DNA of 64,000 bases from an uncultured Clostridia bacterium (GCA_947593925.1 CANQDU010000005.1:48571-112570), one strand, 5' to 3'; positions 46,167 to 63,590 are shown, numbered from the stretch's first letter. Made by a program: numbers and translations. The notes: generated from the letters alone by a model not told the origin.

Positions 46167-46712
46167 TTAGCGTCCGAGGCGGCGCGATATGTCGTCGAGC
46201 TTCGCGTTAGCGTCGGCAGTGCTCGAGGCGATGTTCTTCACGTTCTTCGCGAGATCGAGGAAGATCATCGTTCCCGCTATCAGAAGAAACGACATGAATG
46301 TGCCGACAATGATGGTGAGTATCCCCGAGATCACCATTCCGCCGTTGTAGTAGTAGGGGTTCGACGCGCTCAATATCTGCACCACGCCGCCTATCACCAC
46401 CGCCAGCTCGACTATCACAAACAGTATCCACGTTATGACGCGCATGAAAGCTATCCAGCCGCCGCCCTTGCCGTGCCTCGAGGTGTCCTCGGGTATGTAC
46501 TGCGGGTACTGCACCGGCGCGGCGTACTGCGGCTGCGGGCGGTATCCGTACGGCGGCTGTTGCGGCTGCGGCTGGTACTGCTGCGGCTGATATGTCTGCC
46601 GGGGCTGTCCGTACTGCGGCTGCGGCTCGGCCTGCGGCTGGTACTGCTGCGGCTCGGTCTGCGGCTGAGTCTCTGCCGGCTGTTCCGCGACCTCGTTCCT
46701 GTTTTCGTCCAT
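46167..46712 (-). CDS. Hypothetical membrane protein with Gln/Pro/Tyr-rich N-terminal region
   Basis: 181 aa from MDENRNEV (ATG after ggaagggagaag). PQ(Q)Y repeats, then 3 hydrophobic helices and a short charged tail. Confidence 0.6.
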   Translation of the reverse strand: MDENRNEVAEQPAETQPQTEPQQYQPQAEPQPQYGQPRQTYQPQQYQPQPQQPPYGYRPQPQYAAPVQYPQYIPEDTSRHGKGGGWIAFMRVITWILFVIVELAVVIGGVVQILSASNPYYYNGGMVISGILTIIVGTFMSFLLIAGTMIFLDLAKNVKNIASSTADANAKLDDISRRLGR

Positions 46713-46861
46713 AAGCTCTTCTCCCTTCCATGCGGGCAAAGTGCCCGACCTTGCATAAAGTATACTTCTTTCCGGGAAACATGTCAATAAATTTTGCAAA
46801 TCGGCGCTGTGCGGGCGGTTTTCCGCCCGCACAGCGCTATAGTTTATGGGAGGGATAAAGT

Positions 46862-48043
46862 ATGACAAAAAGACGCGCAAACGGTGAGGGCTCCATCTAT
46901 CGCCGCCGGGACGGACTGTGGACGGCGCAGTTCACAGCGCCGGACGGCCGGCGGCGGTATCTCTACGCTCACACCCGGACGGAGGCGGCGGCGCTGCTGC
47001 GGAGCGCGGCGGCGTCCCCGCCGCCGGCGGACACGCGAACGCTCGGCGAGTGGCTTTCGGAGTGGCTCGAGGTGTACGTCCGGCCGACGGTGCGTCCGCG
47101 CACCTACGCCGCGTATCACGCGGAGCTGTACGGCCACATCGTCCCGGCGCTCGGCGAGACGCCGCTGTACCTTCTCCGGGAGGAGGCGCTCCAGCGCTTC
47201 CTCGCTCGGGAGCTCGGCCGGTTCGCGCGCTCGACCGTCTCGCACCTGCGGACGCGCCTCCAGACCTCGCTGCAAAAGGCGGCGGATCTCGGCTACATCG
47301 AGAAGAACCCGGCGGCGCGGCTCGTCCTGCCTCCGGCGGACAAGCCCGAGCGGCTGGTCTTTTCGCCGGAGGAACAGCGGCGGTTCGAGCTCGCGGCGAT
47401 GAGCCGGTTCGGGCGTCAGTGGCTCGCCGCCGTGCCGGTGCTTCTGCTCCGCACCGGCCTGCGGATTGGGGAGGCGCTGGGTCTGCGGCTCGAGGACATT
47501 GACCTCGAGCGGAAGGAGCTGCGCGTGCGGCGGACGGTCGGGCGCGTCCGCGCGCCGGGGACGGGGCATGCGCCGATATGCGAGGGCGAGCCGAAGACGC
47601 GGCAGAGCCGCCGCACCGTCCCGATAGACACGTTCACGGCGGAGCTGCTGCGCGCGGCGATGCTCCGCCGCGCCGAGATGATCCGGCGGTCGGCAGAGCG
47701 GTGGCGCGCGTCGCCGCGTTGGGACGGGACGTGGCTCGAGCGCGGCTTCCTCTTCCTCACGAGCACCGGCGCGCTGTCGGACGGTACCGATATCCGCCGC
47801 CTGCTCCGCTCTGTCGAGGACGAGGCGGGCCTGCCGCCGGTCACTCTGCACGGCCTCCGCCACACGTTCGCTACGCGCTGGGTGGAGAGCGGGCTGGACA
47901 TCAAGAGCCTGAGCGAGCTTCTCGGCCACTCGGACACGCAGATGACGCTCAACATCTATACGCACTCGCTGCCGGGGCAGAAGCGCGCGTGCGTTGACCG
48001 GCTCGCGGAGCTGCTGTACGGCGGGGCGACGGCGTCGCTGTAA
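46862..48043 (+). CDS. Tyrosine-type site-specific recombinase/integrase (orphan; candidate invertase of the adjacent locus)
   Basis: 393 aa. N-terminal arm-type-binding-like RANGEGSIYRRRDGLWTAQF. Catalytic R (LLLRTGLRIGE), HxxR (HGLRHTFAT), H..Y (LGHSDTQMTLNIYTH) all intact. SD gggaggg precedes the ATG. Confidence 0.9.
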   Translation: MTKRRANGEGSIYRRRDGLWTAQFTAPDGRRRYLYAHTRTEAAALLRSAAASPPPADTRTLGEWLSEWLEVYVRPTVRPRTYAAYHAELYGHIVPALGETPLYLLREEALQRFLARELGRFARSTVSHLRTRLQTSLQKAADLGYIEKNPAARLVLPPADKPERLVFSPEEQRRFELAAMSRFGRQWLAAVPVLLLRTGLRIGEALGLRLEDIDLERKELRVRRTVGRVRAPGTGHAPICEGEPKTRQSRRTVPIDTFTAELLRAAMLRRAEMIRRSAERWRASPRWDGTWLERGFLFLTSTGALSDGTDIRRLLRSVEDEAGLPPVTLHGLRHTFATRWVESGLDIKSLSELLGHSDTQMTLNIYTHSLPGQKRACVDRLAELLYGGATASL

Positions 48044-48205
48044 AGTCGCTGTATTCGCCGGGGCGCGAGACCCGCGCGGCGGCGGCGTTTCGGCGGCTGT
48101 GTGCGGAGAAAGCGCGGCGGGCGGCTGTAAAACCGTCCTCCGGGCGCGGCGGGCGGCGCGCGAAACCGGCGAAAAATCCCTCCCGAATGATTTTTTGCAG
48201 GACAC

Positions 48206-48687
48206 GGCAGGAGTGTCATGCCAAAAAATCTTACAGGAGGAAAAGAACACATGAAGAACCTGAAGAAAGTTCTGTCCCTGGCTCTTGCGTTTGCGATGGT
48301 GCTGGGCCTGTGCGTCGGGGCTATGGCCGCGCAGGACGTCACCAAAGCCGGAGACTGGGCAGACGTCACCAACAAGGACGCGGCTCAGCTTCTGAACGCG
48401 TTCAACATCATGGCGGGCGACGACAAGGGCAATTTCAACCCCGCTAACAACGTCACCCGTGCAGAGGCCACCAAGATGATCGCTGTCGCTCTTTGGAGCG
48501 GCGAGGATCTCAAGGACTGGTTCAAGGACAGCACCACCACCTTTACCGACGTTCACAGCGCCGACTGGTTTGCCGGCTACGTTAACTACGCCGTGACCAC
48601 CGGCATCGTCGGCGGCCGTAACGCCACCACCTTCGACCCGAAGGGCAACGTCACCGGCTACGAGCTGCTGAAGATGACCCTTACCGC
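48206..48687. repeat. Outer inverted repeat, left arm (482 bp)
   Basis: Exact reverse complement of 53934-54415 (checked line by line), with mismatches immediately outside both ends. Contains the 45-nt leader, AGGAGG, the start codon and codons 1-145. Confidence 0.97.
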
Positions 48688-51100
48688 GCTCGGCTACAAG
48701 CAGGACGTTGAGGGCCTCATCGGCGCCAACTGGAAGGTCAACACCATGCGCCTCGCCATCGGCGGCAATGACCTCGCCGACCTGACCAAGGACGTCAAGG
48801 TCACCAGCTGGGACACTCCGATCAGCCGTGACAATACCGCTAAGGTCGTCGCTAACATGATCGGCCGCGCCACCGTCAAGTATGACCGTGACGGCTATCT
48901 CGTTGTCAACACCAAGACTGAAAACGACGAAACCGTTAACGTGACCTTCGGCGCGCAGTACCTCGGCGTCACGACCAAGACCGGCGTTCTCGTTGCCAAC
49001 ACCTACGGCACGATGAATTCGAGCGTGCTCGGAGCAACTACTGGCGCCGCCGTCTACAAAGTTAAGGATGCCGACCACTTTAATGCGGTTGTTCAGCCGA
49101 TGAAGGACGGCAAGATCGATGGTGATCCGATCGATGTCAACAGCGACAGCGGCCTGTTCGCGCTCGGTTCCAATGCCACCGTTTATCTCTCCAACGGCGT
49201 CGCGATTTCGACGGTCGTCACTCCCGCTGCGGCTATCAACGATCCCTATGCTAAGTTTGATACCGACACCAACGGCGATAAGGCCGTTAAGACGATCACC
49301 GTCGGCCCCGCCACCGGAGATACCGCGTATAATGCTTCCTTCAATTTCGATACTAACGCGAACGGCAAGTACGATCTCACGATAACCGTTAAGTTCGCGA
49401 CTATCAAAGAAGTCAAGGACGTTGTCGAGACCAAGAACTTCGGCACTGTCTATCAGACCGAGGGCGTCGCTTGGCGTGACCTCTATGACAAGGAAGGCGA
49501 GAAGCTCCGCAGCGGCTTCACCACCTTGAAGACGATAGCCGGCGACGCGCCTGCCAAGGGCGATCAGATCATGTATTCCACGGTCAAAAATGCCAGCGAT
49601 AAGGACGTCACCATCGGCGTTGCACTTGATGCGACCGAGGGCAAGGTCACCCGTATCAACGGCTCCACTTACTACATTGACGGCGTTGCACACTCCATCG
49701 GCACCAAGACCAGCGGTACTACTAGTGATGCCGCTTGCGTAACGCTCACCTTCGGCACCGCCGCTACCTTCTACACCTATCCGGGCTCGACCGAAATAGT
49801 CTTGACCGGCGATGTTAAGACCGAGGCGGTCAAGGTCGCGCTCATCTATGACGCGGGTTACACCCCCGGCACTGAAGGCACCGGTCTTGACGCCACCACG
49901 ACCAAGCCGGTCGTCGAAGTCGCGGCTATCCTGCCGGACGGCACTCCGGGCACCTACGTTCTCGTTTCTGCCCCCAAGGATACGAGTACTAACTACGATC
50001 TTACTACGGAAGCCGGTATAGCGGATGCCTTTGGCAACAGTGGCGCTCTCACTGATCTGAACAGCAAAGCTTGGACGGTCAAAACAACGCCTGAGGCCAC
50101 CACCATTGAGGCGGGCAATGATGCCAAGAACTACATCGTTGAGTACACGCTTACTGATGACGGCTACATGAAGATCACCAAGATCGAGAAGCTTGATGAC
50201 ACGAACGTGATCAAGGGCGGCGAGAAGGGTACTGCCATCACCACCAGCACCACGAGCGTCAAGGTTGGCGATGATAGCAAGGTCATCACCCCCGATACCG
50301 TAACCTTCATCCAGACCTCGATAAAGAAGGATACTGACACTACCGAGAAGTGGACCGCCTATGTCGGCAGAACCGCCAGCTACACCATTAAGGCCGGCAA
50401 TAACAACGAAGACGGCGCAGTACAGGTGGTGCTCACCGACTACACCAGCGAGAAGGACGCGGCCGCCGTCAAGTACGCGCTTGTCGAGTACAAGGACTGC
50501 GATCAGAACGTCGGAACCAAGTCCGACTTCTACTATGTCATCGCCGTTAACGGCCAGATCGGTGATAGCAAGTACGAGTACGTCGTCTATGACGCGAGCG
50601 CGGACGAGGTCAAGACCATCACCACTGAAGACGACAAAGTTAGTGGTACAGCTATAGCGAAGGGCGACTTCTACACCACGTATGACGGCAAGAAGTTCTC
50701 GGAAAAGCAGAACTCCGCATGGGTGGTAGCTGCAAATACGGGCTATGTCACGAGCTTCAAGGACAACATACTCGTTATTACCGGCTACAGCGATAAGGCT
50801 AATACGACGGACAAGAAGTATCCGTTCGACCAGGTCAAGACTATCGCGGTCGATAACGACACGAAGTATTACTTCCTCGGCGACGACAAGACCAGCGCGA
50901 AGATAACCGCCGCTGATGTTGTCGCGCAGGCTCCGTCCAAGGAGCCGACCTTGGACACGACCAAGGATCCGAATGTGCTCACCACTCCGTATCAGGCGAT
51001 CGTTATAGCGAGCACCACAAAGACCGGTTACGCTTCTACCGTCATCGTCTTTGAGGCGGAGCAGAGCTACACGACCAACGTTACTACCTCCGGTCGTTAA
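48251..51100 (+). CDS. SLH-anchored S-layer-type surface protein, cassette A (949 aa)
   Basis: ATG 48251 is 10 nt after aggagg. Signal peptide MKNLKKVLSLALAFAMVLGLCVGAMA. N-terminal SLH repeats (NAFNIMAGDDKGNFNPANNVTRAEATKMI.., FTDVHSADWFAGYVNYAVTTGIVGG..). Thr/Val/Gly/Asp-rich beta-type body. Confidence 0.9.
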   Translation: MKNLKKVLSLALAFAMVLGLCVGAMAAQDVTKAGDWADVTNKDAAQLLNAFNIMAGDDKGNFNPANNVTRAEATKMIAVALWSGEDLKDWFKDSTTTFTDVHSADWFAGYVNYAVTTGIVGGRNATTFDPKGNVTGYELLKMTLTALGYKQDVEGLIGANWKVNTMRLAIGGNDLADLTKDVKVTSWDTPISRDNTAKVVANMIGRATVKYDRDGYLVVNTKTENDETVNVTFGAQYLGVTTKTGVLVANTYGTMNSSVLGATTGAAVYKVKDADHFNAVVQPMKDGKIDGDPIDVNSDSGLFALGSNATVYLSNGVAISTVVTPAAAINDPYAKFDTDTNGDKAVKTITVGPATGDTAYNASFNFDTNANGKYDLTITVKFATIKEVKDVVETKNFGTVYQTEGVAWRDLYDKEGEKLRSGFTTLKTIAGDAPAKGDQIMYSTVKNASDKDVTIGVALDATEGKVTRINGSTYYIDGVAHSIGTKTSGTTSDAACVTLTFGTAATFYTYPGSTEIVLTGDVKTEAVKVALIYDAGYTPGTEGTGLDATTTKPVVEVAAILPDGTPGTYVLVSAPKDTSTNYDLTTEAGIADAFGNSGALTDLNSKAWTVKTTPEATTIEAGNDAKNYIVEYTLTDDGYMKITKIEKLDDTNVIKGGEKGTAITTSTTSVKVGDDSKVITPDTVTFIQTSIKKDTDTTEKWTAYVGRTASYTIKAGNNNEDGAVQVVLTDYTSEKDAAAVKYALVEYKDCDQNVGTKSDFYYVIAVNGQIGDSKYEYVVYDASADEVKTITTEDDKVSGTAIAKGDFYTTYDGKKFSEKQNSAWVVAANTGYVTSFKDNILVITGYSDKANTTDKKYPFDQVKTIAVDNDTKYYFLGDDKTSAKITAADVVAQAPSKEPTLDTTKDPNVLTTPYQAIVIASTTKTGYASTVIVFEAEQSYTTNVTTSGR

Positions 51101-51118
51101 CCCCAACTCACACTGAAT

Positions 51119-51164
51119 CAACACACACGTTAAAACGCTTTGGCATGGCGTGAAAACCTGCAAA
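51119..51164. repeat. Inner inverted repeat, left arm (46 bp, 1 mismatch)
   Basis: caacacacacgttaaaacgctttggcatggcgtgaaaacctgcaaa is the reverse complement of 51599-51644, except 51152 g vs a. Starts 19 nt after the cassette A stop. Confidence 0.9.
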
Positions 51165-51170
51165 TGAGGA

Positions 51171-51200
51171 GCGCCCCCGAGCCGCAAGGCTCGGGGGCGC
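51171..51200 (+). terminator. Hairpin after cassette A (weak T-tract)
   Basis: GCGCCCCCGAGCC gcaa GGCTCGGGGGCGC followed by CTTCGTG. Confidence 0.45.
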
Positions 51201-51228
51201 CTTCGTGCGCGCGAGGGGGAGCGAGTGC

Positions 51229-51304
51229 GCGGGACACACAGCGCGGGACACACAGCGCGGGACACACAGCGCGGGACACACAGCGCGGGACACACAGCGC
51301 GGGG
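51229..51304. repeat. 14-bp tandem repeat, 5.4 copies
   Basis: (gcgggacacacagc)x5 then gcgggg. Intergenic, between the two convergent cassettes. Confidence 0.95.
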
Positions 51305-51564
51305 GGTGCGCGCCGCATCTGCGGCGCGCACGGCGGCGCGGCGGCGACGAGGCCGGGCGCGGAGCCGCATGCTCGCGGGTGCGGGCGGGTCTGTGCGGCG
51401 CTGAGAGCTCCGTTCCGCCGCCGCACCGCCGCAGGACGCGCCCGTGGCCACGGGCGCGTCCTGCGCCCCCGCGCGCCCCGCAACCCCCGCGCTTCGCTCT
51501 GTCCGGCGGCTCCGCAGGGCACAGGCTGCGGGCAAAGCCCGCAGCCTGTGCCCTACGCGCGCAA

Positions 51565-51597
51565 AAGCCGCCTCGGGCAAAATGCCCGAGGCGGCTT
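51565..51597 (-). terminator. Intrinsic terminator after cassette B
   Basis: Minus strand AAGCCGCCTCGGGCA ttt TGCCCGAGGCGGCTT followed by TTGCGCGC. Confidence 0.7.
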
Positions 51598-51598
51598 C

Positions 51599-51644
51599 TT
51601 TGCAGGTTTTTACGCCATGCCAAAGCGTTTTAACGTGTGTGTTG
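51599..51644. repeat. Inner inverted repeat, right arm (46 bp)
   Basis: Reverse complement of 51119-51164 with one mismatch. Ends 11 nt from the cassette B stop codon. Confidence 0.9.
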
Positions 51645-51655
51645 CTGTGAGGGAC

Positions 51656-54370
51656 TTACTCGGCGGCCTTCGCAACAGCCGGCTGCTCCTCAACAAAGAG
51701 GATGACGGTATCGGCAATATTGTCAGTGCCGACAACGACGATCGCCTGATACGGCGGCGCCTGGTCATCGTCCTTGGGCAGATTGGCCGGGGTCTGAGCG
51801 ATAACGTCAGCGGCGGTTATCTTCTCGCTGTTGGTCTCATCGCCGAGGACATAATACTTCGTGTCGGTATCGACAACGATAGCCTTAAGGGTGCCGTAGT
51901 CCTTATATCCGTTCTCCTGCGCATTCTTTGCGAAACCGGAGAGAACGAGGATATTGTCGGCAACACTGGTGACATAGCCCTTATTGTCATCGGTAAACAC
52001 CTTCGGCTCGCTAAATGTCAATCCATCATACCCGCCGTAGAAGTCGCCCTTCTTGACATTCGCACCGCCGGTAAGGCTCGTAGTGACGGTCTTGACTTCG
52101 TCCGCGCTCGCGTCATAGACGACGAACTCGCGCTTGTCATCAGCGATCTGGCCGTTAACAGTGATGACATAGTAGAAGTCGGATTCAGTCGGGGCAGCTT
52201 CGCCAAGAGCAGCCTTAGTGACAACTGCATACTTAACGGAGGCGTTCTCTATTCCGTTGTAGATACCGAGAACAACGCTTACGCTACCCTGCTTCGCAAT
52301 GGTGTAAGCGTGCCTGCCGGTGTAAGCAGCCCACTCCTCGGCGCCGGTCGTTTCATCCTTCTTGGTCTGGACGAAAGTGACGGTATCGGAGGTGATCAGC
52401 TTAACGCCAGCCGCAGTACCACCAGTAACTGTAACGTTCGTAGTGGTCGCCTTAATATCAAGGCCATCATTGCCACCGGCAATTGTTCCGTTATACGGAA
52501 CAGCTTCGGTTATCGTCATGTTGTCGTTCTCATCAAGAGTGTACTTGACGATATAGTTGGTGTCGCCACCCTTTGCATTATTAAGCGTGAGGCCACTCTT
52601 GCTATTGCTAGCAGCGCTCCAATCGTTGCCGTTCAGACCAAACAGATTCTGGCTCTGGGTATTGAAAACCGTCGAGATCTCAGCGTCTTTGGTAAGATCG
52701 TGATTACCGAACTTGGTAACGACATAGTTGCCCGGAGTGCCGTCCGGCAGGATAGCGGCGACGGTGACGACAGAATTAGTCGCGGTTGCGCCAAGGCTAG
52801 TACCCTTGTTGCCAGGGGTCAAACCTGCGTCATAGAGGAGCGCGACCTTGCCATCCGACTTCGCGGTCAGATCCTCGTCAAGAATGATGGTCGAGCCCGG
52901 ATAGGTGTAGAAGACGCCGGTAGCACCGAAGGTGGGCTTATCACCCGCGCCGATGCTGTACTTAGTGCCGTTAATGTAGTAGTCATTGCCGTTGATGCGG
53001 CTGACGGAGCCCTCGACGGTCTCGAGCGCAACGCCTACGTTAACGGGCGTGCCGGCAGCGTCCGTGGACTCGGCGTACATGATCTTGTCGCCCTTAGCAG
53101 GAGCGGTACCGGCTATTGTCTTCATGGTGGTGAAGCCGGTGTGAATGTTCGTGTTAGGCTTGTCATAGAGGTCGCGCCAAGCCGCAGCAGCGTTGGTCTG
53201 ATAGACGGTGCCAAAGTTCTCGGTCTCGACAACATCGTAAACGTCAGAAATGGCCGAGAACTTGACGGTTATCGTGAGATCGTACTTGCCACTCGCATCA
53301 GTATCGAGATTGAAATCAGCACTATACGCGGGAACAGTGGCGGTGCCAATGGTGACGGACGTGACATCCTTTGCTCCCTCAGTATTGGTGTCATACTTAT
53401 CGGTGTCGCTGATGGCCGTGGCCGGAGTGACGGCTACCGAGATCGGGGTTCCGTCCTTCTTATAAACGACGACCTTGGAGCCGAGCTCGAACAGTCCGCT
53501 GTCGCTATTGACATCAAAGGCGTCTGCAGGCGCTCCGTCCTTGGGGAGAACAACAGCGTTGTACTTCGTGCTGTCCTTTACCGCATATGCAGTGTTGCTC
53601 CCATAGGTCATTGCGCCGTAAGCGTTGGCAACGAGGGTGCCCTCAGTTCTAGCAAGGCCGAGGTAATAGGTGCCGAAAGTAACGACATCGTCAGCATCCT
53701 TCCCGGGGATATTCCCAACGAGTCCGGTCGTGGGGTTATAAGTGACGGGGGTACGCTCGACCATATTGGCTATGACCTTCGCGGTGTTGTCGCGGTCGAT
53801 CGCGAGATCCCAGTTGGTGACCTTGACGTCCTTGGTCAGATCCTTCTGGCCCCTGCTGCCGATGGCGAGGAGCATGGTGTTGACCTTCCAGTTGGCGCCG
53901 ACGAGACCCTCTTTGTTCTGGTCGTAACCAAGAGCGGTAAGGGTCATCTTCAGCAGCTCGTAGCCGGTGACGTTGCCCTTCGGGTCGAAGGTGGTGGCGT
54001 TACGGCCGCCGACGATGCCGGTGGTCACGGCGTAGTTAACGTAGCCGGCAAACCAGTCGGCGCTGTGAACGTCGGTAAAGGTGGTGGTGCTGTCCTTGAA
54101 CCAGTCCTTGAGATCCTCGCCGCTCCAAAGAGCGACAGCGATCATCTTGGTGGCCTCTGCACGGGTGACGTTGTTAGCGGGGTTGAAATTGCCCTTGTCG
54201 TCGCCCGCCATGATGTTGAACGCGTTCAGAAGCTGAGCCGCGTCCTTGTTGGTGACGTCTGCCCAGTCTCCGGCTTTGGTGACGTCCTGCGCGGCCATAG
54301 CCCCGACGCACAGGCCCAGCACCATCGCAAACGCAAGAGCCAGGGACAGAACTTTCTTCAGGTTCTTCAT
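51656..54370 (-). CDS. SLH-anchored S-layer-type surface protein, cassette B (904 aa)
   Basis: The first 149 aa are identical to cassette A, then a diverged paralogous body with conserved islands. Start ATG 54370 (same RBS as A); the upstream 22 codons of the track ORF are rejected. Confidence 0.9.
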   Translation of the reverse strand: MKNLKKVLSLALAFAMVLGLCVGAMAAQDVTKAGDWADVTNKDAAQLLNAFNIMAGDDKGNFNPANNVTRAEATKMIAVALWSGEDLKDWFKDSTTTFTDVHSADWFAGYVNYAVTTGIVGGRNATTFDPKGNVTGYELLKMTLTALGYDQNKEGLVGANWKVNTMLLAIGSRGQKDLTKDVKVTNWDLAIDRDNTAKVIANMVERTPVTYNPTTGLVGNIPGKDADDVVTFGTYYLGLARTEGTLVANAYGAMTYGSNTAYAVKDSTKYNAVVLPKDGAPADAFDVNSDSGLFELGSKVVVYKKDGTPISVAVTPATAISDTDKYDTNTEGAKDVTSVTIGTATVPAYSADFNLDTDASGKYDLTITVKFSAISDVYDVVETENFGTVYQTNAAAAWRDLYDKPNTNIHTGFTTMKTIAGTAPAKGDKIMYAESTDAAGTPVNVGVALETVEGSVSRINGNDYYINGTKYSIGAGDKPTFGATGVFYTYPGSTIILDEDLTAKSDGKVALLYDAGLTPGNKGTSLGATATNSVVTVAAILPDGTPGNYVVTKFGNHDLTKDAEISTVFNTQSQNLFGLNGNDWSAASNSKSGLTLNNAKGGDTNYIVKYTLDENDNMTITEAVPYNGTIAGGNDGLDIKATTTNVTVTGGTAAGVKLITSDTVTFVQTKKDETTGAEEWAAYTGRHAYTIAKQGSVSVVLGIYNGIENASVKYAVVTKAALGEAAPTESDFYYVITVNGQIADDKREFVVYDASADEVKTVTTSLTGGANVKKGDFYGGYDGLTFSEPKVFTDDNKGYVTSVADNILVLSGFAKNAQENGYKDYGTLKAIVVDTDTKYYVLGDETNSEKITAADVIAQTPANLPKDDDQAPPYQAIVVVGTDNIADTVILFVEEQPAVAKAAE

Positions 54371-54415
54371 GTGTTCTTTTCCTCCTGTAAGATTTTTTGG
54401 CATGACACTCCTGCC
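53934..54415. repeat. Outer inverted repeat, right arm (482 bp)
   Basis: Exact reverse complement of 48206-48687. Confidence 0.97.
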
Positions 54416-54424
54416 ACAATTCGG

Positions 54425-54453
54425 ATAATACACCACTTCCCCCCTTATTGCAA
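54425..54453 (-). promoter_or_regulatory. Candidate S-layer expression-site promoter
   Basis: Minus strand TTGCAA (54453-54448), 17 nt, TATTAT (54430-54425). The -10 box ends 9 nt outside the repeat arm. The flank 54481-54540 is about 32% GC by hand count. Confidence 0.6.
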
Positions 54454-54462
54454 GGGGGGAAG
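54436..54462 (-). terminator. Hairpin downstream of holB, overlapping the -35 box
   Basis: CTTCCCCCCTT / AAGGGGGGAAG 11-bp stem with a 5-nt loop. On the minus strand it is followed by TGGTGTATTAT. Confidence 0.45.
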
Positions 54463-54550
54463 CCGATTTGTAACATAAGTGTAATAGAAGCGATTTTTTG
54501 CAACTTTGGTGAAATATTGGGTTAGCGCATTAAAAAAGTTATATTTTAGT

Positions 54551-55297
54551 CTATATTAAGGACGCAATGAGCCACGAGGCGACCTGCGCGGGGGTCACAT
54601 TTGCTCTCAACATGTCCTCCGCGCGGGACGCGAGATCGGCTCCTCGAAGGGCGCGGGACGCGAGCTGCGGACTTGCCGCCGCCGCATTAGCCAGCGTGCT
54701 CCGCGCCTCTTCGAGTTTCCGAACGGCTCCGTCTCCTTTCAGCTTTGTAAACGGTGCGAACGCCTCCGTGAGCGCGCTCTTAGAGCGGACTCCGCGCACC
54801 AGCGCGCGGGCGAGCGCGCGGGCGTCTCCCTCCGGGGCAGCCGGCGCGGCCTCGTCCTCATCCTCCGCGCGGACAAGGCCGCAGCGCGAGCGGACGGTGC
54901 CGAGCAGCGCGCGCGAGTTTTCGCACACAAATATGAATATGCAGGGCGTGGGCGGCTCCTCGACCGTGGCGAGCAGGGCGTTCTGCGCCGCCGCGTTCAT
55001 CCCGTCCGCGCCGTGGACGAGGAAGACCTGGCGCGCCGCCTCGTTCGGCTTCACCTGCGCCGCCTCACGCATGGCGCGCGCGGACTCGATCTTTATCGCG
55101 CCGCGCTCGTCCGGCGTGACCTCGTGCAGGTCGGGGTGCGCGCGGCTGAGCGACTTGCGGCAGTCCTCACAGACGCCGCAGGGCGCGTCCGGCGCGGAAC
55201 ACAGCGCCTCCCGCGCGAGGCGGAACGCGAGAGCTTCGCGCGCGGCCTCGCTCCCGCCGGTCACGATATAAGCGTGAAGTCCGCCCAAAATGCCCAC
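54551..55297 (-). CDS. holB: DNA polymerase III delta' subunit
   Basis: 248 aa: HAYIVTGG, CGVCEDCRKSLSRAHPDLHEV (Zn module), QNALLATVEEPP. Sits next to the yaaQ homolog as in B. subtilis. Confidence 0.8.
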   Translation of the reverse strand: MGILGGLHAYIVTGGSEAAREALAFRLAREALCSAPDAPCGVCEDCRKSLSRAHPDLHEVTPDERGAIKIESARAMREAAQVKPNEAARQVFLVHGADGMNAAAQNALLATVEEPPTPCIFIFVCENSRALLGTVRSRCGLVRAEDEDEAAPAAPEGDARALARALVRGVRSKSALTEAFAPFTKLKGDGAVRKLEEARSTLANAAAASPQLASRALRGADLASRAEDMLRANVTPAQVASWLIASLI

Positions 55298-62123: not shown

Positions 62124-63590
62124 TTAGTTCGGCCTCGGGAGCTCGCCGCCCTCATCGAGAATAGTGAATGCGTCGGAGATCTTCGTCAGGACGTCTCTGT
62201 GGACCGCAAAGCCGGTCTCCTCTCCGTCGAGGAAGGCCGCGTAGCGGCGCGAGTTCAGCTCGTAGAGCTCGAGCGTGACCGTCTCTCCGTTGTTTCTCGT
62301 GACGACGAAGCGGTACGCCGGTCTGCCGGGAAGTGTGACCCCGTCGGGGTCGTACGCCTCGTAGACCTGAACTGCTATGACGTGGGCAAACAGGCGGCTC
62401 GCGTTCTGGGAGCTTATCGCCTTGCCGTCTACCGAGCCGGAGACCGTGCCGGTCTTGTTCTCCTCGGTCGGCTCTTCATAGCTGAGCTCGAGGGTATGCT
62501 CGCCCTCCGGAGTGAAGAACTCGACCTTCGCGACGTCGCGCACGTTCTCGGTGACAAGGAGCTTGAAGAGCAGATCGACGTAGTTCACGCTGAACAGCGC
62601 GTCCGAGACATTCTCGGCGGTGAGTATCGTGTCAAGTCCCTCGACCATGACGTAGGCGTTCGAGCCGACGGTCTTGCCGATGTAGTAATGCACCTCGTCG
62701 CCGCCCGTGTTCTTCAGCCAGACCTCGCGCGGCGCGTCAAAGCCGTACTCGGAGAGCTGTTCGTCGGTCGGGTCGTCGATGAAGATGCCGTTTACCGTTA
62801 TCGCGACCGCGACGTTTATCAGCTTGTTCTCGACCGCATCGTCGGTGCAGAGACCCTCGAACGGCTCCTCCATGAAGAAGCCGGAGGAGAGCTCGCCGCG
62901 CTCCTCCTCGGTGGCGGCACGGACGAGCATCTCATAGTCCGTCGCGGGATCGACGGCGCGGACGTAGGTTATCTCTCCGTTCGTCTCGTAGGTCATCTGG
63001 TCGGTGTCGAAGTAGTCCGGGAAGAACTCGTAGGTGCGGTAGTCCATCTCGCGGCGGGTGAGCTGACTTATCGAATACGCGCCGACGGCGTAGACGTTCC
63101 CGTCGCCCACGGAGCAGTAATAGCTGTTGTTGAGGGCGGTGGGGGCGCCTACCTTGAGGGTGTAGTCCCTGTCCTCGCCGAAGCGCACCTCTATGCGCCA
63201 CACCGGCGCGTCAAGGCCGTACTGCGAGAGGTCGTCCGGGTTCTCCGCCACGGTGGAGAGGCTCGAAAGCGTCGCCGCGTTTATGGCGGAGGCGCGGATG
63301 GCGTCCGGGTCGTAATTCCAGCCCTCGCGCTTCGGCTCCACCGTAAAGTCGCCGTTCCCGTCGGGAAGGACGGTGTTCATCAGCGTACCGTCCGCATCGT
63401 ACACGCGGATATAGCTGAGGTCGCTGAACTTCTCGTTTATGAGGTACTTCGTCTGTACCGGCGCGGAGCTCGCGTCCGGCGAGGCGGAAACGTCCGTATT
63501 CGCTTCGCCGTCCGGCAGCAGGAACACCAGCGCGGTGATGCCTGCGAGCAGCGCTATAACTATCGCCGCGATTATCAGCTTCTTTTTCAT
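62124..63590 (-). CDS. DUF4340-domain protein (partner of GldG-type ABC accessory proteins)
   Basis: 488 aa. N-terminal TM MKKKLIIAAIVIALLAGITALVFLL. The start overlaps the upstream stop (ATGA). The family call comes from context and overall pattern. Confidence 0.6.
   Translation of the reverse strand: MKKKLIIAAIVIALLAGITALVFLLPDGEANTDVSASPDASSAPVQTKYLINEKFSDLSYIRVYDADGTLMNTVLPDGNGDFTVEPKREGWNYDPDAIRASAINAATLSSLSTVAENPDDLSQYGLDAPVWRIEVRFGEDRDYTLKVGAPTALNNSYYCSVGDGNVYAVGAYSISQLTRREMDYRTYEFFPDYFDTDQMTYETNGEITYVRAVDPATDYEMLVRAATEEERGELSSGFFMEEPFEGLCTDDAVENKLINVAVAITVNGIFIDDPTDEQLSEYGFDAPREVWLKNTGGDEVHYYIGKTVGSNAYVMVEGLDTILTAENVSDALFSVNYVDLLFKLLVTENVRDVAKVEFFTPEGEHTLELSYEEPTEENKTGTVSGSVDGKAISSQNASRLFAHVIAVQVYEAYDPDGVTLPGRPAYRFVVTRNNGETVTLELYELNSRRYAAFLDGEETGFAVHRDVLTKISDAFTILDEGGELPRPN

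What the first reader, a model, noticed from the sequence alone, without database searches (positions are those of the whole stretch)
46862..54550. Candidate S-layer cassette-swap inversion switch: two convergent SLH-protein genes bounded by a perfect 482-bp inverted repeat, next to an orphan tyrosine recombinase
Seen in sequence. (1) 48206-48687 is the exact reverse complement of 53934-54415 (482/482, checked line by line). The bases just outside both ends differ (48205 vs 54416; 48688 vs 53933). (2) Each arm carries the 45-nt leader with AGGAGG, the ATG, the signal peptide and the first two SLH repeats, which form the wall anchor. (3) Beyond the arms the two ORFs (949 and 904 aa) are diverged paralogs. 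(4) The genes converge, so the arms are the outer ends of a 6,210-bp segment. Recombination between them would invert it and exchange which exposed body is joined to which flank. (5) An intact integrase-type tyrosine recombinase (R, HxxR, H, Y all present) lies 162 nt from the left arm, with no other phage or ICE genes nearby and native-like GC. Established knowledge: S-layer switching by inversion between conserved 5' regions occurs in Campylobacter fetus sap and Lactobacillus acidophilus slpA/slpB, and recombinase-driven invertons such as C. difficile cwpV/RecV exist. Inference: this is antigenic or phase variation with a constant anchor module and a swappable surface module. I do not recognise this layout (convergent cassettes plus a dedicated integrase-like enzyme) as described.
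Basis: partly seen in the sequence, partly recalled or inferred. Interest (0 to 1): 0.9.

Follow-up and report, generated by a model that had tools for sequence, protein, structure and literature searches.

The report
Invertible two-cassette surface-layer gene switch
An uncultured gut Clostridia bacterium carries two alternative cell-surface (S-layer-type) protein genes facing each other, with one promoter on one side and a domesticated phage-type recombinase on the other; flipping the 6.2-kb segment would change which coat protein is made, a known kind of surface-variation switch in a new bacterial setting.

Summary
48206-48687 is the exact reverse complement of 53934-54415, and similarity continues to 682 nt at 93%. 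The arms hold the leader, signal peptide and first SLH repeats of two convergent paralogs (949 and 904 aa, 58% identical). An intact tyrosine integrase lies 162 nt away.

- **Promoter:** the only sigma-70-like promoter (TTGCAA-17-TATTAT) abuts the right, holB-side arm. The integrase-side gene looks silent.
- **Conservation:** the ftsH-orf-integrase-SLH-SLH layout recurs in two clades (FtsH 80% identical, integrase 54%). The integrase is under purifying selection and keeps arm-type repeats like those in the attP of mobile relatives.
- **Recombination:** a sister strain identical elsewhere over 22 kb differs by 32 substitutions inside one arm, so the 482-nt identity is a recent gene conversion.
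- **Inversion:** in one related genome the inter-cassette region is reverse-complemented between collinear flanks. Cassette end modules sit on reciprocal sides in two lineages.

Not shown: both orientations within one population (five assemblies of this strain agree), and that the integrase rather than RecA catalyses the flip. The layout is not new. It matches Lactobacillus acidophilus slpA/slpB, and recombinase-linked switches such as Mycoplasma Vpma/Xer1 are known. I rate it a new variant of a known kind.

The parts
46167..46712 (-). Small membrane protein gene. It has a P/Q/Y-rich N-terminus and two predicted TM helices. It is a conserved neighbour between ftsH and the integrase; function unknown.
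   Evidence: Called as a gene in L001, L004, L011, L022 and L025. Translation. No family hit. A strong promoter-like site lies at 46787-46759 (-).
46862..48043 (+). Phage-type tyrosine integrase: an N-terminal arm-binding-like segment, a SAM-like domain and a catalytic domain. It is resident in the chromosome.
   Evidence: Pfam PF00589 and PF14659. phrog_1, full length. Catalytic R/K/HxxR/H/Y conserved in both clades. dN/dS 0.05-0.21 within clades, and dS equal to that of ftsH. Best PDB sequence match is the 'Int protein' entries 6EMY, 6EN0 and 6EMZ.
48038..48053 (+). Candidate arm-type integrase-binding repeat CTGTA-N6-CTGTA, in 11-nt phase, overlapping the integrase stop codon. A further GCTGTAAA lies at 48124-48131.
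   Evidence: The phased motif occurs once in the 64-kb window. In every related locus it occurs only downstream of int. It also occurs in the attP region of the satellite-like mobile relatives. GCTGTAAA: 5 copies against 0.87 expected in the window, two of them here.
48197..48221 (+). Imperfect dyad GCAGGACAC-GGCAGGA-GTGTCATGC straddling the outer boundary of the left arm. It is a candidate core-type recombination site.
   Evidence: Sequence. It is conserved in clade 2 as GCATGA(C/T)(A/G)T-GGCAGGA-GGGTCATGC on the integrase side and also on the promoter side.
48206..48687 (+). Left arm of the inverted repeat: perfect 482 nt, with similarity continuing to 48887. It holds the leader, RBS, signal peptide and SLH repeats 1-2 of gene A. 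Its first 17 nt, GGCAGGAGTGTCATGCC, are the only leader segment conserved between clades.
48251..51100 (+). SLH surface-protein gene A (949 aa), on the integrase side with no promoter detected. It is the presumed silent cassette in this orientation.
   Evidence: The AlphaFold model has an SLH helical trimer followed by beta-rich domains. The SLH part matches the B. anthracis Sap SLH domain, 3PYW.
51119..51164 (+). Conserved 3' element of cassette A, the inverted partner of 51599-51644. It shares TTTGCAGG and CATGCCAAA, in reverse complement, with the integrase-side junction.
   Evidence: I6, 98%. Conserved in L002 and L003. Motif sharing. Predicted pairing with the 5' leader.
51168..51201 (+). 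Terminator-like hairpin T1 of cassette A. It has no U tract.
51213..51317 (+). 14-nt tandem repeat GCGCGGGACACACA, six listed copies (four exact). The sister strain L019 has one unit fewer.
51562..51598 (-). Canonical intrinsic terminator T2 of cassette B (GC-rich hairpin plus UUUU). A second strong hairpin lies at 51513-51557.
   Evidence: (I15).
51599..51644 (-). Conserved 3' element of cassette B.
51656..54370 (-). SLH surface-protein gene B (904 aa), directly downstream of the promoter. It is the presumed expressed cassette in this orientation.
53934..54415 (-). Right arm of the inverted repeat: perfect 482 nt, with similarity from 53734. Positions 54027-54307 form the tract that differs by 32 substitutions and a 3-nt indel in sister strains L019, L020 and L021.
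54425..54453 (-). Sigma-70-like promoter TTGCAA-17-TATTAT. Its -10 ends 9 nt before the arm, so the arm starts at about the transcription start. The -35 sits in the loop of hairpin 54436-54462.
   Evidence: The sequence is identical in L002 and nearly so in L003. The same TTGCAA-17-TATCAT lies at the same 9-nt distance in clade 2 (L057).
54551..55297 (-). holB (DNA polymerase III delta'), the housekeeping flank of the expression site.

Best explanation
This is a two-cassette expression-site/silent-site switch for the major SLH-anchored surface protein, probably the S-layer protein, of an uncultured gut Clostridia bacterium.

**How it works.**
- One fixed promoter on the holB side transcribes whichever cassette abuts it. 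The arm begins at about the transcription start, so leader, RBS and signal peptide are common to both cassettes.
- The other cassette sits promoterless next to the integrase.
- Recombination between the inverted leader/signal-peptide blocks flips the 6.2-kb segment. The two bodies, each with its own terminator, then change places.

**Proposed catalyst (inferred).** I propose that the flip is catalysed by the adjacent domesticated phage/satellite-type tyrosine integrase. It would act at the conserved 17-nt element or dyad at the outer end of each arm, helped by the CTGTA arm-type repeats next to its gene. Ordinary homologous recombination and gene conversion then spread and maintain identity inward from that point for variable distances, which gives the 482-nt perfect arm of this strain.

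**Shown.**
- The anatomy.
- The promoter asymmetry, at consensus level only.
- Gene conversion within the arm.
- Opposite orientation and reciprocal module swaps among related genomes.
- Conservation of, and selection on, the integrase and its flanking motifs.

**Inferred.**
- Switching within populations.
- Silence of the integrase-side gene.
- The integrase as catalyst.
- That the protein forms an S-layer.
- The benefit (phage or immune evasion).
For: **Anatomy and promoter.**
- The perfect inverted arms are confirmed.
- The only promoter-like site for the pair is at 54453-54425 (-). None is found upstream of gene A.
- The promoter is conserved in W, L002 and L003 and in clade 2.
- Each cassette has its own terminator.

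**Conserved layout and integrase.**
- The layout ftsH-orf-int-SLH> <SLH is seen in L001, L002, L003, L019 and L025, and in clade 2 (L004, L011, L022) where the integrase is only 53-55% identical and FtsH 80%.
- Integrase dN/dS is 0.05-0.21. Its dS matches that of ftsH (0.176 against 0.163), so it is inherited vertically with the locus.
- Integrases at 42-48% identity sit in ~13-kb satellite-like elements carrying portal, capsid, TerL and primase genes. The attP region of those elements carries the same 11-nt-phased CTGTR repeats as the int-SLH spacer here.

**Arm boundaries.**
- The outer boundary is fixed at -44/-45 in all genomes. The inner end varies: +63, +81, +183 and +437.
- The 17-nt leader start is the only leader segment conserved between clades.
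- The full dyad is present at both junctions in clade 2.

**Recombination and inversion.**
- Window against L019 over 22.3 kb differs only by one tandem-repeat unit, the cluster at 54027-54307 inside the arm, and one unrelated cluster.
- The L002 inter-cassette region is the reverse complement of the window's: 113 nt at 93.8% and 88 nt at 96.6%, between collinear flanks.
- L002 reads int-[alpha..T2][T1..beta]-holB and L003 reads int-[beta..T1][T2..alpha]-holB. Over gene nt 420-680, L2_left is 81.9% identical to L3_right but 72.3% to L3_left. L2_right is 75-82% identical to L3_left but 65-71% to L3_right.
Against: - No assembly of this strain shows the alternative orientation. The window, L001+L020, L019 and L021 all read int>A and holB>B. 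L003 and L024 also agree with each other.
- The only contigs that join the integrase flank to the other cassette body (L012, L013) come from k=31 de Bruijn assemblies. These cannot resolve a 120-nt repeat, so they carry no orientation information.
- A 482-nt perfect repeat and a conversion tract of at least 281 nt are hallmarks of homologous recombination, not site-specific recombination.
- In this clade the promoter-side junction lacks the left half of the dyad (1 of 9 matches).
- The dyad spacing (7 nt with imperfect 9-mers, or 11-13 nt with the perfect 7-mers) is not clearly canonical.
- Similarity of the core to the attP junction of the satellites is not significant on its own (221 of 2000 shuffles).
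- The integrase belongs to no known invertase family.
- The L002 orientation rests on a single MAG contig.
- The promoter call is a consensus match only.
Confidence: 0.5

Rival explanations
1. The same expression-site/silent-site inversion switch operates, but the flip is made by general RecA-dependent homologous recombination across the long identical arms, as for Campylobacter fetus sap. Under this rival the integrase is not the invertase. It could be a fixed relic of an old integration, or it could serve another role such as capture or exchange of cassettes.
For: - The arms are long and perfect, with a variable inner end.
- A gene-conversion tract of at least 281 nt separates sister strains.
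- The integrase-side cassette body was replaced between L003 and L025, precisely between the conserved 5' arm and the stop codon/3' element, which fits homologous replacement.
- The promoter-side junction of this clade lacks half of the dyad.
- RecA dependence of sap inversion is established knowledge, not tested here.
Against: - A relic would not stay intact with dN/dS of 0.05-0.2 across clades whose FtsH is only 80% identical. Nor would it keep its phased arm-type repeats and a conserved dyad exactly at the arm boundary.
- The minimal always-identical block is only about 108-126 nt, and its outer edge is fixed to the nucleotide.
Confidence: 0.25
2. There is no programmed switch. The two genes are tandem-inverted paralogs of a hypervariable surface-protein locus. 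Both may be expressed, or the second may serve only as a reservoir for gene conversion and horizontal cassette replacement. Inversions are then rare evolutionary accidents between inverted paralogs, and the integrase is unrelated to them.
For: - The orientation is constant in all assemblies of this strain and within the L003/L024/L025 lineage.
- Cassette bodies differ at 40-50% aa identity between genomes whose flanks are 91-95% identical. The modules are mosaic, as in loci shaped mainly by horizontal transfer and conversion.
- Read-through from the integrase gene into gene A cannot be excluded, because no terminator was detected between them.
Against: - The promoter asymmetry is conserved in both clades.
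- The leader/signal-peptide identity block and the convergent layout are kept in every lineage, even though the bodies have turned over completely.
- There is a reciprocal, not one-way, side-swap between L002 and L003.
- The integrase is linked to the locus and under selection.
Confidence: 0.15
3. The perfect inverted repeat is an assembly artefact, for example a collapsed or copied repeat in a metagenome contig.
For: The window comes from an uncultured-organism assembly. Assemblers can homogenise near-identical repeats.
Against: - An independent assembly (L001) is 100% identical over 13 kb, including the left arm.
- Independent assemblies (L019, L020, L021) reproduce the right side except for one sharply bounded tract.
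- The same architecture appears in at least seven other lineages or samples.
Confidence: 0.03

Closest known systems
Lactobacillus acidophilus slpA/slpB chromosomal slp-segment inversion (Boot et al. 1996, as reviewed in PMC3666127)
   Same: It has two S-layer protein genes, one expressed and one silent. [quoted passage not shown] From my own recollection of Boot et al. 1996, not verified here: the segment is about 6 kb, the genes are oppositely oriented, and the crossover lies in their identical 5' regions.
   Different: - The Lactobacillus S-layer proteins are not SLH-anchored.
- To my knowledge no dedicated recombinase gene has been described next to that locus.
- Here a conserved phage-type integrase with arm-type repeats adjoins the silent site, and each cassette also carries a conserved 3' element related to the 5' junction.
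Mycoplasma agalactiae vpma locus with Xer1 (PMC2268961); also M. bovis vsp and M. pulmonis vsa/HvsR (from my own knowledge)
   Same: It is a family of surface-protein genes with a tyrosine recombinase gene adjacent to the locus. Inactivating xer1 abolishes Vpma switching and complementation restores it, which proves the recombinase essential for the inversions (PMC2268961). From my own knowledge, not checked in the paper: a single promoter serves the family, and the inversions occur at a short site in the conserved 5' region.
   Different: - The recombinase there is a short Xer-like enzyme without an arm-binding domain, the sites are short, and several lipoprotein genes take part.
- Here there are two very large SLH proteins, 100-480 nt of identity, a lambda/Tn916-like integrase with an N-terminal arm-binding-type segment, and no functional data.
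Campylobacter fetus sap S-layer variation (my own knowledge)
   Same: It gives S-layer antigenic variation by DNA inversion between conserved 5' regions of sap homologs, with a single promoter.
   Different: In C. fetus the promoter lies inside the invertible element between divergently oriented homologs, up to eight cassettes take part, and the process is largely RecA-dependent. Here the promoter is outside, the genes converge and only two cassettes are seen.
Gene-altering programmed inversions and shufflons next to tyrosine recombinases: Type I R-M hsdS, Bacteroides SusC/D shufflon BT1040/42/46 (PMC9881135; bioRxiv 10.1101/521070)
   Same: Inverted repeats lie inside coding regions, so that alternative gene bodies are joined to one expressed 5' end. 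A tyrosine recombinase is often adjacent. SLH-domain proteins are listed among the families enriched at predicted programmed inversions (PMC9881135).
   Different: No SLH case is described in detail there. Here whole genes with their own terminators are exchanged, and the recombinase is a vertically inherited satellite-type integrase.
Clostridioides difficile cwpV/RecV switch (PMC2784873)
   Same: It gives phase-variable expression of a cell-wall protein in a Firmicute, controlled by a DNA-inversion switch (PMC2784873).
   Different: From my own knowledge, cwpV uses a small invertible element in the 5' UTR giving ON/OFF expression of a single gene, with the recombinase encoded elsewhere. Here a 6.2-kb segment carrying two complete genes is exchanged.

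Membership tests
Expression-site/silent-site S-layer inversion (L. acidophilus slp type) | Two paralogous surface-layer genes in opposite orientation on one segment, with identical 5' regions | tested here: met
   The genes are convergent, 949 and 904 aa. The 5' regions are identical over 482 nt here and over at least 108 nt in all relatives.
Expression-site/silent-site S-layer inversion (L. acidophilus slp type) | A single promoter outside the invertible segment | tested here: inconclusive
   A consensus scan finds TTGCAA-17-TATTAT only on the holB side, and it is conserved in both clades. There are no transcription data, and read-through from int is not excluded.
Expression-site/silent-site S-layer inversion (L. 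acidophilus slp type) | Both orientations occur (segment inversion observed) | tested here: inconclusive
   Between lineages, yes: the L002 inter-cassette region is reverse-complemented and the end modules are reciprocally swapped against L003. Within this strain, no: five assemblies share one orientation. No reads were available.
Expression-site/silent-site S-layer inversion (L. acidophilus slp type) | The products are the S-layer subunit | not testable with these tools
   The SLH trimer is confirmed. The body is beta-rich with no structural match. Lattice formation is unknown.
Tyrosine-recombinase-driven surface-gene inversion systems (Vpma/Xer1 type) | A tyrosine recombinase gene adjacent to, and co-inherited with, the variable locus | tested here: met
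   It is adjacent in every lineage with sequence on that side. dS equals that of ftsH, and dN/dS is 0.05-0.21.
Tyrosine-recombinase-driven surface-gene inversion systems (Vpma/Xer1 type) | A short conserved recombination site in the 5' region of each gene copy, in inverted orientation | tested here: inconclusive
   The 17-nt GGCAGGAG(T/G)GTCATGCC sits at the outer end of both arms and is conserved between clades. The full dyad is at both junctions in clade 2 but only on the integrase side here. No binding or cleavage data exist.
Tyrosine-recombinase-driven surface-gene inversion systems (Vpma/Xer1 type) | The recombinase is required for switching | not testable with these tools
   This needs genetics or a heterologous inversion assay.
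Campylobacter fetus sap-type inversion | The promoter lies inside the invertible element, between divergent homologs | tested here: not met
   The genes converge and the promoter lies outside the arms.
Phage-type tyrosine integrase (Pfam PF00589 with N-terminal SAM-like domain) | The domains score above the curated cut-offs and the catalytic R-K-HxxR-H-Y residues are present | tested here: met
   PF00589 scores 92.4 bits (cut-off 27.1) and PF14659 scores 39 bits (cut-off 22.6). Residues are shown in the alignment. phrog_1 E = 1.6e-71.
Phage-type tyrosine integrase (Pfam PF00589 with N-terminal SAM-like domain) | It is part of a mobile element (phage, satellite or ICE genes, att repeats, tRNA target) | tested here: not met
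   Both flanks are housekeeping genes and no tRNA is nearby. The position is syntenic in two clades. Only relatives at 48% identity or less are in satellite-like elements.
Known tyrosine DNA invertases (FimB/FimE-type, NCBIfam NF007371) | The score reaches the family cut-off | tested here: not met
   25.6 bits against a cut-off of 222.
SLH-anchored S-layer proteins of Sap/EA1 type | An N-terminal triple SLH module | tested here: met
   Pfam SLH. The AlphaFold model residues ~30-205 match 3PYW (Sap SLH) and SpaA-SLH with probability 1.0.
SLH-anchored S-layer proteins of Sap/EA1 type | An assembly (crystallisation) domain homologous to that of Sap/EA1 | tested here: not met
   No PDB fold match beyond the SLH module. 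The model is only of medium confidence (pLDDT 70), so this is a weak negative.
Small promoter/UTR invertons (cwpV/RecV, fimS type) | A short invertible element carrying a promoter or terminator, flanked by short inverted repeats upstream of one gene | tested here: not met
   The inverted repeats lie in the genes' own 5' ends, 5.2 kb apart (4.8 kb between the extended 682-nt arms). No small inverton was found around the promoter.

The most novel reading that the evidence does not exclude
A phage-satellite integrase was captured long ago by a family-level clade of gut Clostridia and now serves as the dedicated recombinase of the S-layer locus. It kept its arm-type sites. Core-like sites flank each cassette at both ends: the 17-nt element at the 5' end and a related, inverted element just after the stop codon. 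The same enzyme could therefore flip the whole 6.2-kb segment, flip the spacer between the cassettes, and excise or capture whole cassettes. That would make it an integron-like cassette system for cell-surface coats, and would explain why cassette bodies turn over completely between strains whose flanks are over 90% identical.
Probability: 0.15. Interest if true: 0.85.

Novelty: new variant of a known kind. Interest (0 to 1): 0.6.

Why it matters
S-layers are the outermost coat of many Firmicutes and a main target of phages and host immunity. How abundant, uncultured gut Clostridia vary theirs is largely unknown.

This locus offers a compact, testable case. It has one promoter, two complete alternative coat genes and a vertically inherited ex-mobile-element integrase. 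Natural variation already shows gene conversion, inversion and cassette replacement at the site.

If the integrase proves to be the invertase, three things follow:
- It would be a clear example of domestication of a satellite or phage integrase, arm sites included, for host phase variation.
- It would supply the recombinase that, to my knowledge, has not been identified in the classical L. acidophilus slp paradigm.
- It would warn metagenome analysts that S-layer loci of this kind are mis-joined by short-k assemblers.

Tried and rejected
1. **Looking up exact proteins in public assemblies to catch the flipped junction.**
   - Protein A is on 3 contigs, all next to the integrase.
   - The exact protein B is not on record. 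Its 98% variant is on 3 contigs, all next to holB. No flipped junction was found for this strain.
2. **Contigs L012 and L013.** They join the integrase flank to the body of the other cassette of L011. I first read this as natural inversion and then rejected it. They are k=31 de Bruijn contigs, the repeat (~120 nt) exceeds k, and sibling contigs break exactly k-1 nt into the arm. Such a graph cannot encode orientation.
3. **Scan of JGI metagenome contigs with the invariant 20-nt start of the genes.** All 31 hits were unrelated.
4. **Search for full-length copies of L011 gene 2.** None were found. P0128 gave only the known context.
5. **Similarity of the arm's first bases to the attP crossover point of the related satellite integrases.** GGCAGG(G)AGTG lies 3 nt from the L007/L008 divergence point. 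The match alone is not significant (221 of 2000 shuffles), so I keep it only as a lead.
6. **Nucleotide-level constraint on the signal-peptide codons between clades.** About 6 synonymous differences in 21 codons is roughly the genomic synonymous divergence. I dropped this idea.
7. **Rfam scan of 45.5-56 kb.** Nothing real.
8. **Fold search for the protein body.** No match beyond the SLH module.
9. **Plasmid collection.** No match. Phage integrases reach 36.5% identity at most.
10. **Orthology of whole cassette bodies across genomes as a way to read orientation.** The bodies are too diverged, 30-50% aa identity. Only the end modules were informative.


Full report
**1. Observation**

The repeat is exactly as described. 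48206-48687 is the reverse complement of 53934-54415, 482 of 482. The bases outside the outer ends are unrelated (5 of 29 match). Inward, identity decays gradually: 94%, 84% and 66% per 100 nt. The repeat finder therefore reports a 682-nt pair at 93%.

- The arms are the 5' ends of two convergent ORFs: 48251-51100 (+), 949 aa, and 51656-54370 (-), 904 aa. The ORFs are 58% identical over their whole length. Both carry SLH motifs.
- The integrase at 46862-48043 (+) passes the Pfam cut-offs for PF00589 and PF14659. It has all catalytic residues. It ends 162 nt before the arm.
- The surroundings are housekeeping genes: dnaB, tilS, hpt and ftsH on the left; holB, a c-di-AMP receptor and an Orn/Lys/Arg decarboxylase on the right. 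No tRNA is nearby.
- The organism is an uncultured Clostridia bacterium. The matching NCBI MAG titles carry 'Lapin' sample labels, which I read as rabbit gut.

**2. Anatomy beyond the finding**

*(a) Promoter.* The only sigma-70-like promoter that could serve either gene is TTGCAA-17-TATTAT at 54453-54425 (-). Its -10 ends 9 nt before the right arm, so the arm begins at about the transcription start. Nothing comparable precedes gene A. The promoter flank is identical in L002 and nearly so in L003. A second clade has TTGCAA-17-TATCAT at the same 9-nt distance (L057).

*(b) Terminators and 3' elements.* Each cassette has its own terminator hairpin: T1 at 51168-51201, and T2 at 51562-51598 with a U tract. 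A conserved 46-nt element directly follows each stop codon (51119-51164 and 51599-51644, 98% complementary). This element is conserved in L002 and L003.

*(c) Integrase-to-arm spacer.* It contains an 11-nt-phased direct repeat CTGTA-N6-CTGTA at the integrase stop codon (48038-48053). That phased motif occurs once in the 64-kb window. In every related locus it occurs only downstream of int.

*(d) Arm boundary.* The outer boundary lies inside an imperfect dyad, GCAGGACAC-GGCAGGA-GTGTCATGC (48197-48221). The first 17 nt of the arm are the only part of the leader conserved between the two clades.

*(e) Protein.* An AlphaFold model of protein A (pLDDT 70) has a helical SLH trimer followed by beta-rich domains. 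Only the SLH part has structural relatives: the Sap SLH domain 3PYW, and SpaA-SLH.

**3. Related loci**

The same layout (ftsH, small membrane-protein gene, integrase, SLH gene, convergent SLH gene, then holB) occurs widely.

- It is in MAG contigs L002 (integrase 99% identical) and L003 (96%), and in ENA assemblies L001, L019-L021, L024 and L025.
- Integrases only 53-55% identical (L004, L011, L022/L023) still lie in the syntenic position next to an SLH gene with the same leader start and signal peptide.
- Between these two clades FtsH is 80% identical.
- Within clades the integrase has dN/dS of 0.05-0.21. Its dS equals that of ftsH (0.176 against 0.163 for W-L003). It is therefore inherited vertically with the locus and is under purifying selection.
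- Integrases at 42-48% identity sit in ~13-kb elements with portal, protease, capsid, HNH, TerL, primase and an HTH_17 gene. By gene content these look like capsid-forming phage satellites; that is my own reading and was not tested.
- L008 and L010 are circular permutations of one such element, and L007 looks like an integrated copy. Their int-to-xis spacer carries the same phased CTGTR repeats.
- The best sequence match among solved structures is the set of 'Int protein' entries 6EMY, 6EN0 and 6EMZ, which I recognise as the Tn1549 integrase. From my own knowledge, that family tolerates non-identical crossover regions.

**4. Evidence that the arms recombine**

*Sister-strain comparison.* L019 is a 72-kb contig from another sample. 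Over 22.3 kb it differs from the window in three places only:

- one 14-nt tandem-repeat unit (51227-51240);
- a cluster of 32 substitutions plus a 3-nt indel at 54027-54307;
- an unrelated cluster at 62993-63018.

L020 and L021 share the L019 version of the right arm. L001 is 100% identical to the window over the left arm. The perfect 482 nt is therefore the product of a recent non-reciprocal transfer of A-arm sequence onto the B arm.

*Extent of identity across genomes.* The identical block always starts at -44/-45 relative to the ATG. It ends at +63 (L019), +81 (L002), +183 (L003), +437 (window), or +470 with one mismatch (L025/L024).

**5. Evidence for inversion**

- **Whole spacer flipped in L002.** The inter-cassette region of L002 is the reverse complement of the window's. 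L002 323-435 equals W 113-1 at 93.8%, and L002 11-98 equals W 543-456 at 96.6% (intergenic coordinates). Both flanks are collinear.
- **Reciprocal module swap between L002 and L003.** The cassette ends fall into types: alpha, beta and gamma for gene nt ~180-680, and T1 and T2 for the terminator modules.

| Genome | Arrangement |
|---|---|
| L002 | int-[alpha…T2][T1…beta]-holB |
| L003 | int-[beta…T1][T2…alpha]-holB |
| Window | int-[alpha…T1][T2…gamma]-holB |

At the DNA level (gene nt 420-680), L2_left is 81.9% identical to L3_right but 72.3% to L3_left. L2_right is 75.4% identical to L3_left but 65.4% to L3_right. A reciprocal exchange at both ends of both cassettes is most simply one inversion of the whole segment, with the crossover in the always-identical leader/signal-peptide block.

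- **Nested inversion in L003.** An 82-nt central block of the spacer is inverted relative to the window, between collinear T1 and T2 modules.
- **Cassette replacement.** Between L003 and L025 the integrase-side body was replaced exactly between the 5' arm and the stop codon.

*Limits of this evidence.*

- All five assemblies of the window's own strain share one orientation.
- The L002 orientation rests on one SPAdes MAG contig.
- Contigs L012 and L013 appear to join the integrase flank to the other body. They come from k=31 graphs that cannot resolve a 120-nt repeat, and I do not count them.

**6. Mechanism**

The best-supported model is a fixed promoter with two exchangeable cassettes, switched by inversion between the leader/signal-peptide blocks.

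- *For an integrase-catalysed crossover at the outer end of the arms:* the long-term linkage and selection; the retained arm-type repeats; the conserved 17-nt element and dyad at a boundary fixed to the nucleotide; and, in clade 2, a complete dyad TGCATGA-N13-TCATGCC at both junctions.
- *For homologous recombination:* the length of perfect identity, its variable inner end, and the conversion tract.
- The two are compatible. A junction started at a fixed site and extended through homologous DNA would give identity that is always maximal at the outer end.
- My confidence is about 0.7 that the locus is an inversion switch, and about 0.45-0.55 that the integrase is the catalyst.

*The 3' elements.* They share clade-specific motifs with the 5' junction in reverse complement. 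These are TTTGCAGG and CATGCCAAA here, and GCATGACA and GTCATGCC in clade 2. There are two possible readings:

- further recombinase sites flanking each cassette;
- an mRNA 5'-3' end pairing, with predicted duplexes of -24.6 to -27.7 kcal/mol reached by 4-15 of 500 shuffles.

I could not decide between them.

**7. Comparison with known systems**

- The logic is that of L. acidophilus slpA/slpB. [quoted passage not shown]
- It also matches recombinase-linked surface-gene inversions such as Vpma/Xer1 (PMC2268961).
- It differs from C. fetus sap, where the promoter is inside the element and the genes diverge. It also differs from small invertons such as cwpV (PMC2784873).
- SLH-domain proteins are already listed among families enriched at predicted programmed inversions (PMC9881135).
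- The particular features here are the SLH-type proteins, the uncultured gut Clostridia host, the vertically inherited satellite-type integrase with arm-type repeats, and the related elements at both ends of each cassette.

I therefore rate it a new variant of a known kind, interest 0.6.

Noticed in passing
window 62993-63018: There is a cluster of 10 substitutions within 26 nt, inside a DUF4340-family gene (- strand, about 62124-63590). Apart from the S-layer locus, it is the only difference between the window and sister contig L019 over 22 kb. No donor sequence occurs elsewhere in the window.
   Followed up: partly
window 51213-51317: The 14-nt tandem repeat GCGCGGGACACACA lies between the two cassettes. 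The window has one more unit than L019, so copy number varies between otherwise identical strains.
   Followed up: partly
window 51119-51164 and 51599-51644; L011 5257-5300; L057 5451-5500: The conserved element just after each stop codon is reverse-complementary to the first ~20 nt of the leader, and it co-varies with the leader between clades. Predicted RNA duplexes are -24.6 to -27.7 kcal/mol. It could be an mRNA 5'-3' end pairing or a second set of recombinase sites.
   Followed up: partly
L003 14285-14366 against window 51303-51384: An 82-nt central block of the inter-cassette spacer is inverted in L003 relative to the window (93.9% identity), while the terminator modules on both sides are collinear. 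This is a nested inversion with unknown end points.
   Followed up: partly
L025 5060-7091 against L003 12026-14072: The integrase-side cassette body is completely different in two strains whose flanks are 97.5% identical. Homology resumes 8 nt before the stop codon. The promoter-side gene is 98% conserved. This indicates cassette replacement at the silent site.
   Followed up: partly
L006-L010: The nearest mobile relatives of the integrase (42-48% identity) are in ~13-kb elements with int, HTH_17, primase-polymerase, portal, protease, capsid, HNH and TerL genes. L008 and L010 are circular permutations of one element. In L007 the element abuts the portal gene of a second, larger prophage-like region. 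These look like capsid-forming phage satellites.
   Followed up: partly
L012, L013, L014-L018: The Logan k=31 contigs of the clade-2 locus mostly end exactly ~30 nt into the arm (L015-L018) or at its inner end (L014). Two run straight through into the other cassette (L012, L013). This shows in practice how inverted repeats longer than k create uninformative or chimeric joins.
   Followed up: yes
window 46759-46838: A near-consensus promoter (TTGACA-17-TATACT, - strand, 46787-46759) serves the small P/Q-rich membrane-protein gene. A perfect 16-bp GC-rich hairpin (46803-46838) sits between it and the integrase start codon. No promoter-like site was found for the integrase itself.
   Followed up: no
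L022 5590-5640 against L057 2630-2680: In clade 2 the integrase-side flank resembles a decayed copy of the promoter: TTGCGC-17-TATTGC against TTGCAA-17-TATCAT. This suggests the original duplication included the promoter and that one copy was later inactivated.
   Followed up: no
window 48190-48219 (-) and 54402-54429 (+): The arm's GTCATGCC, read outward, provides an ATGACA -35-like hexamer. This gives weak outward-facing promoter-like sites at both junctions; the one at the right junction overlaps the main promoter.
   Followed up: no
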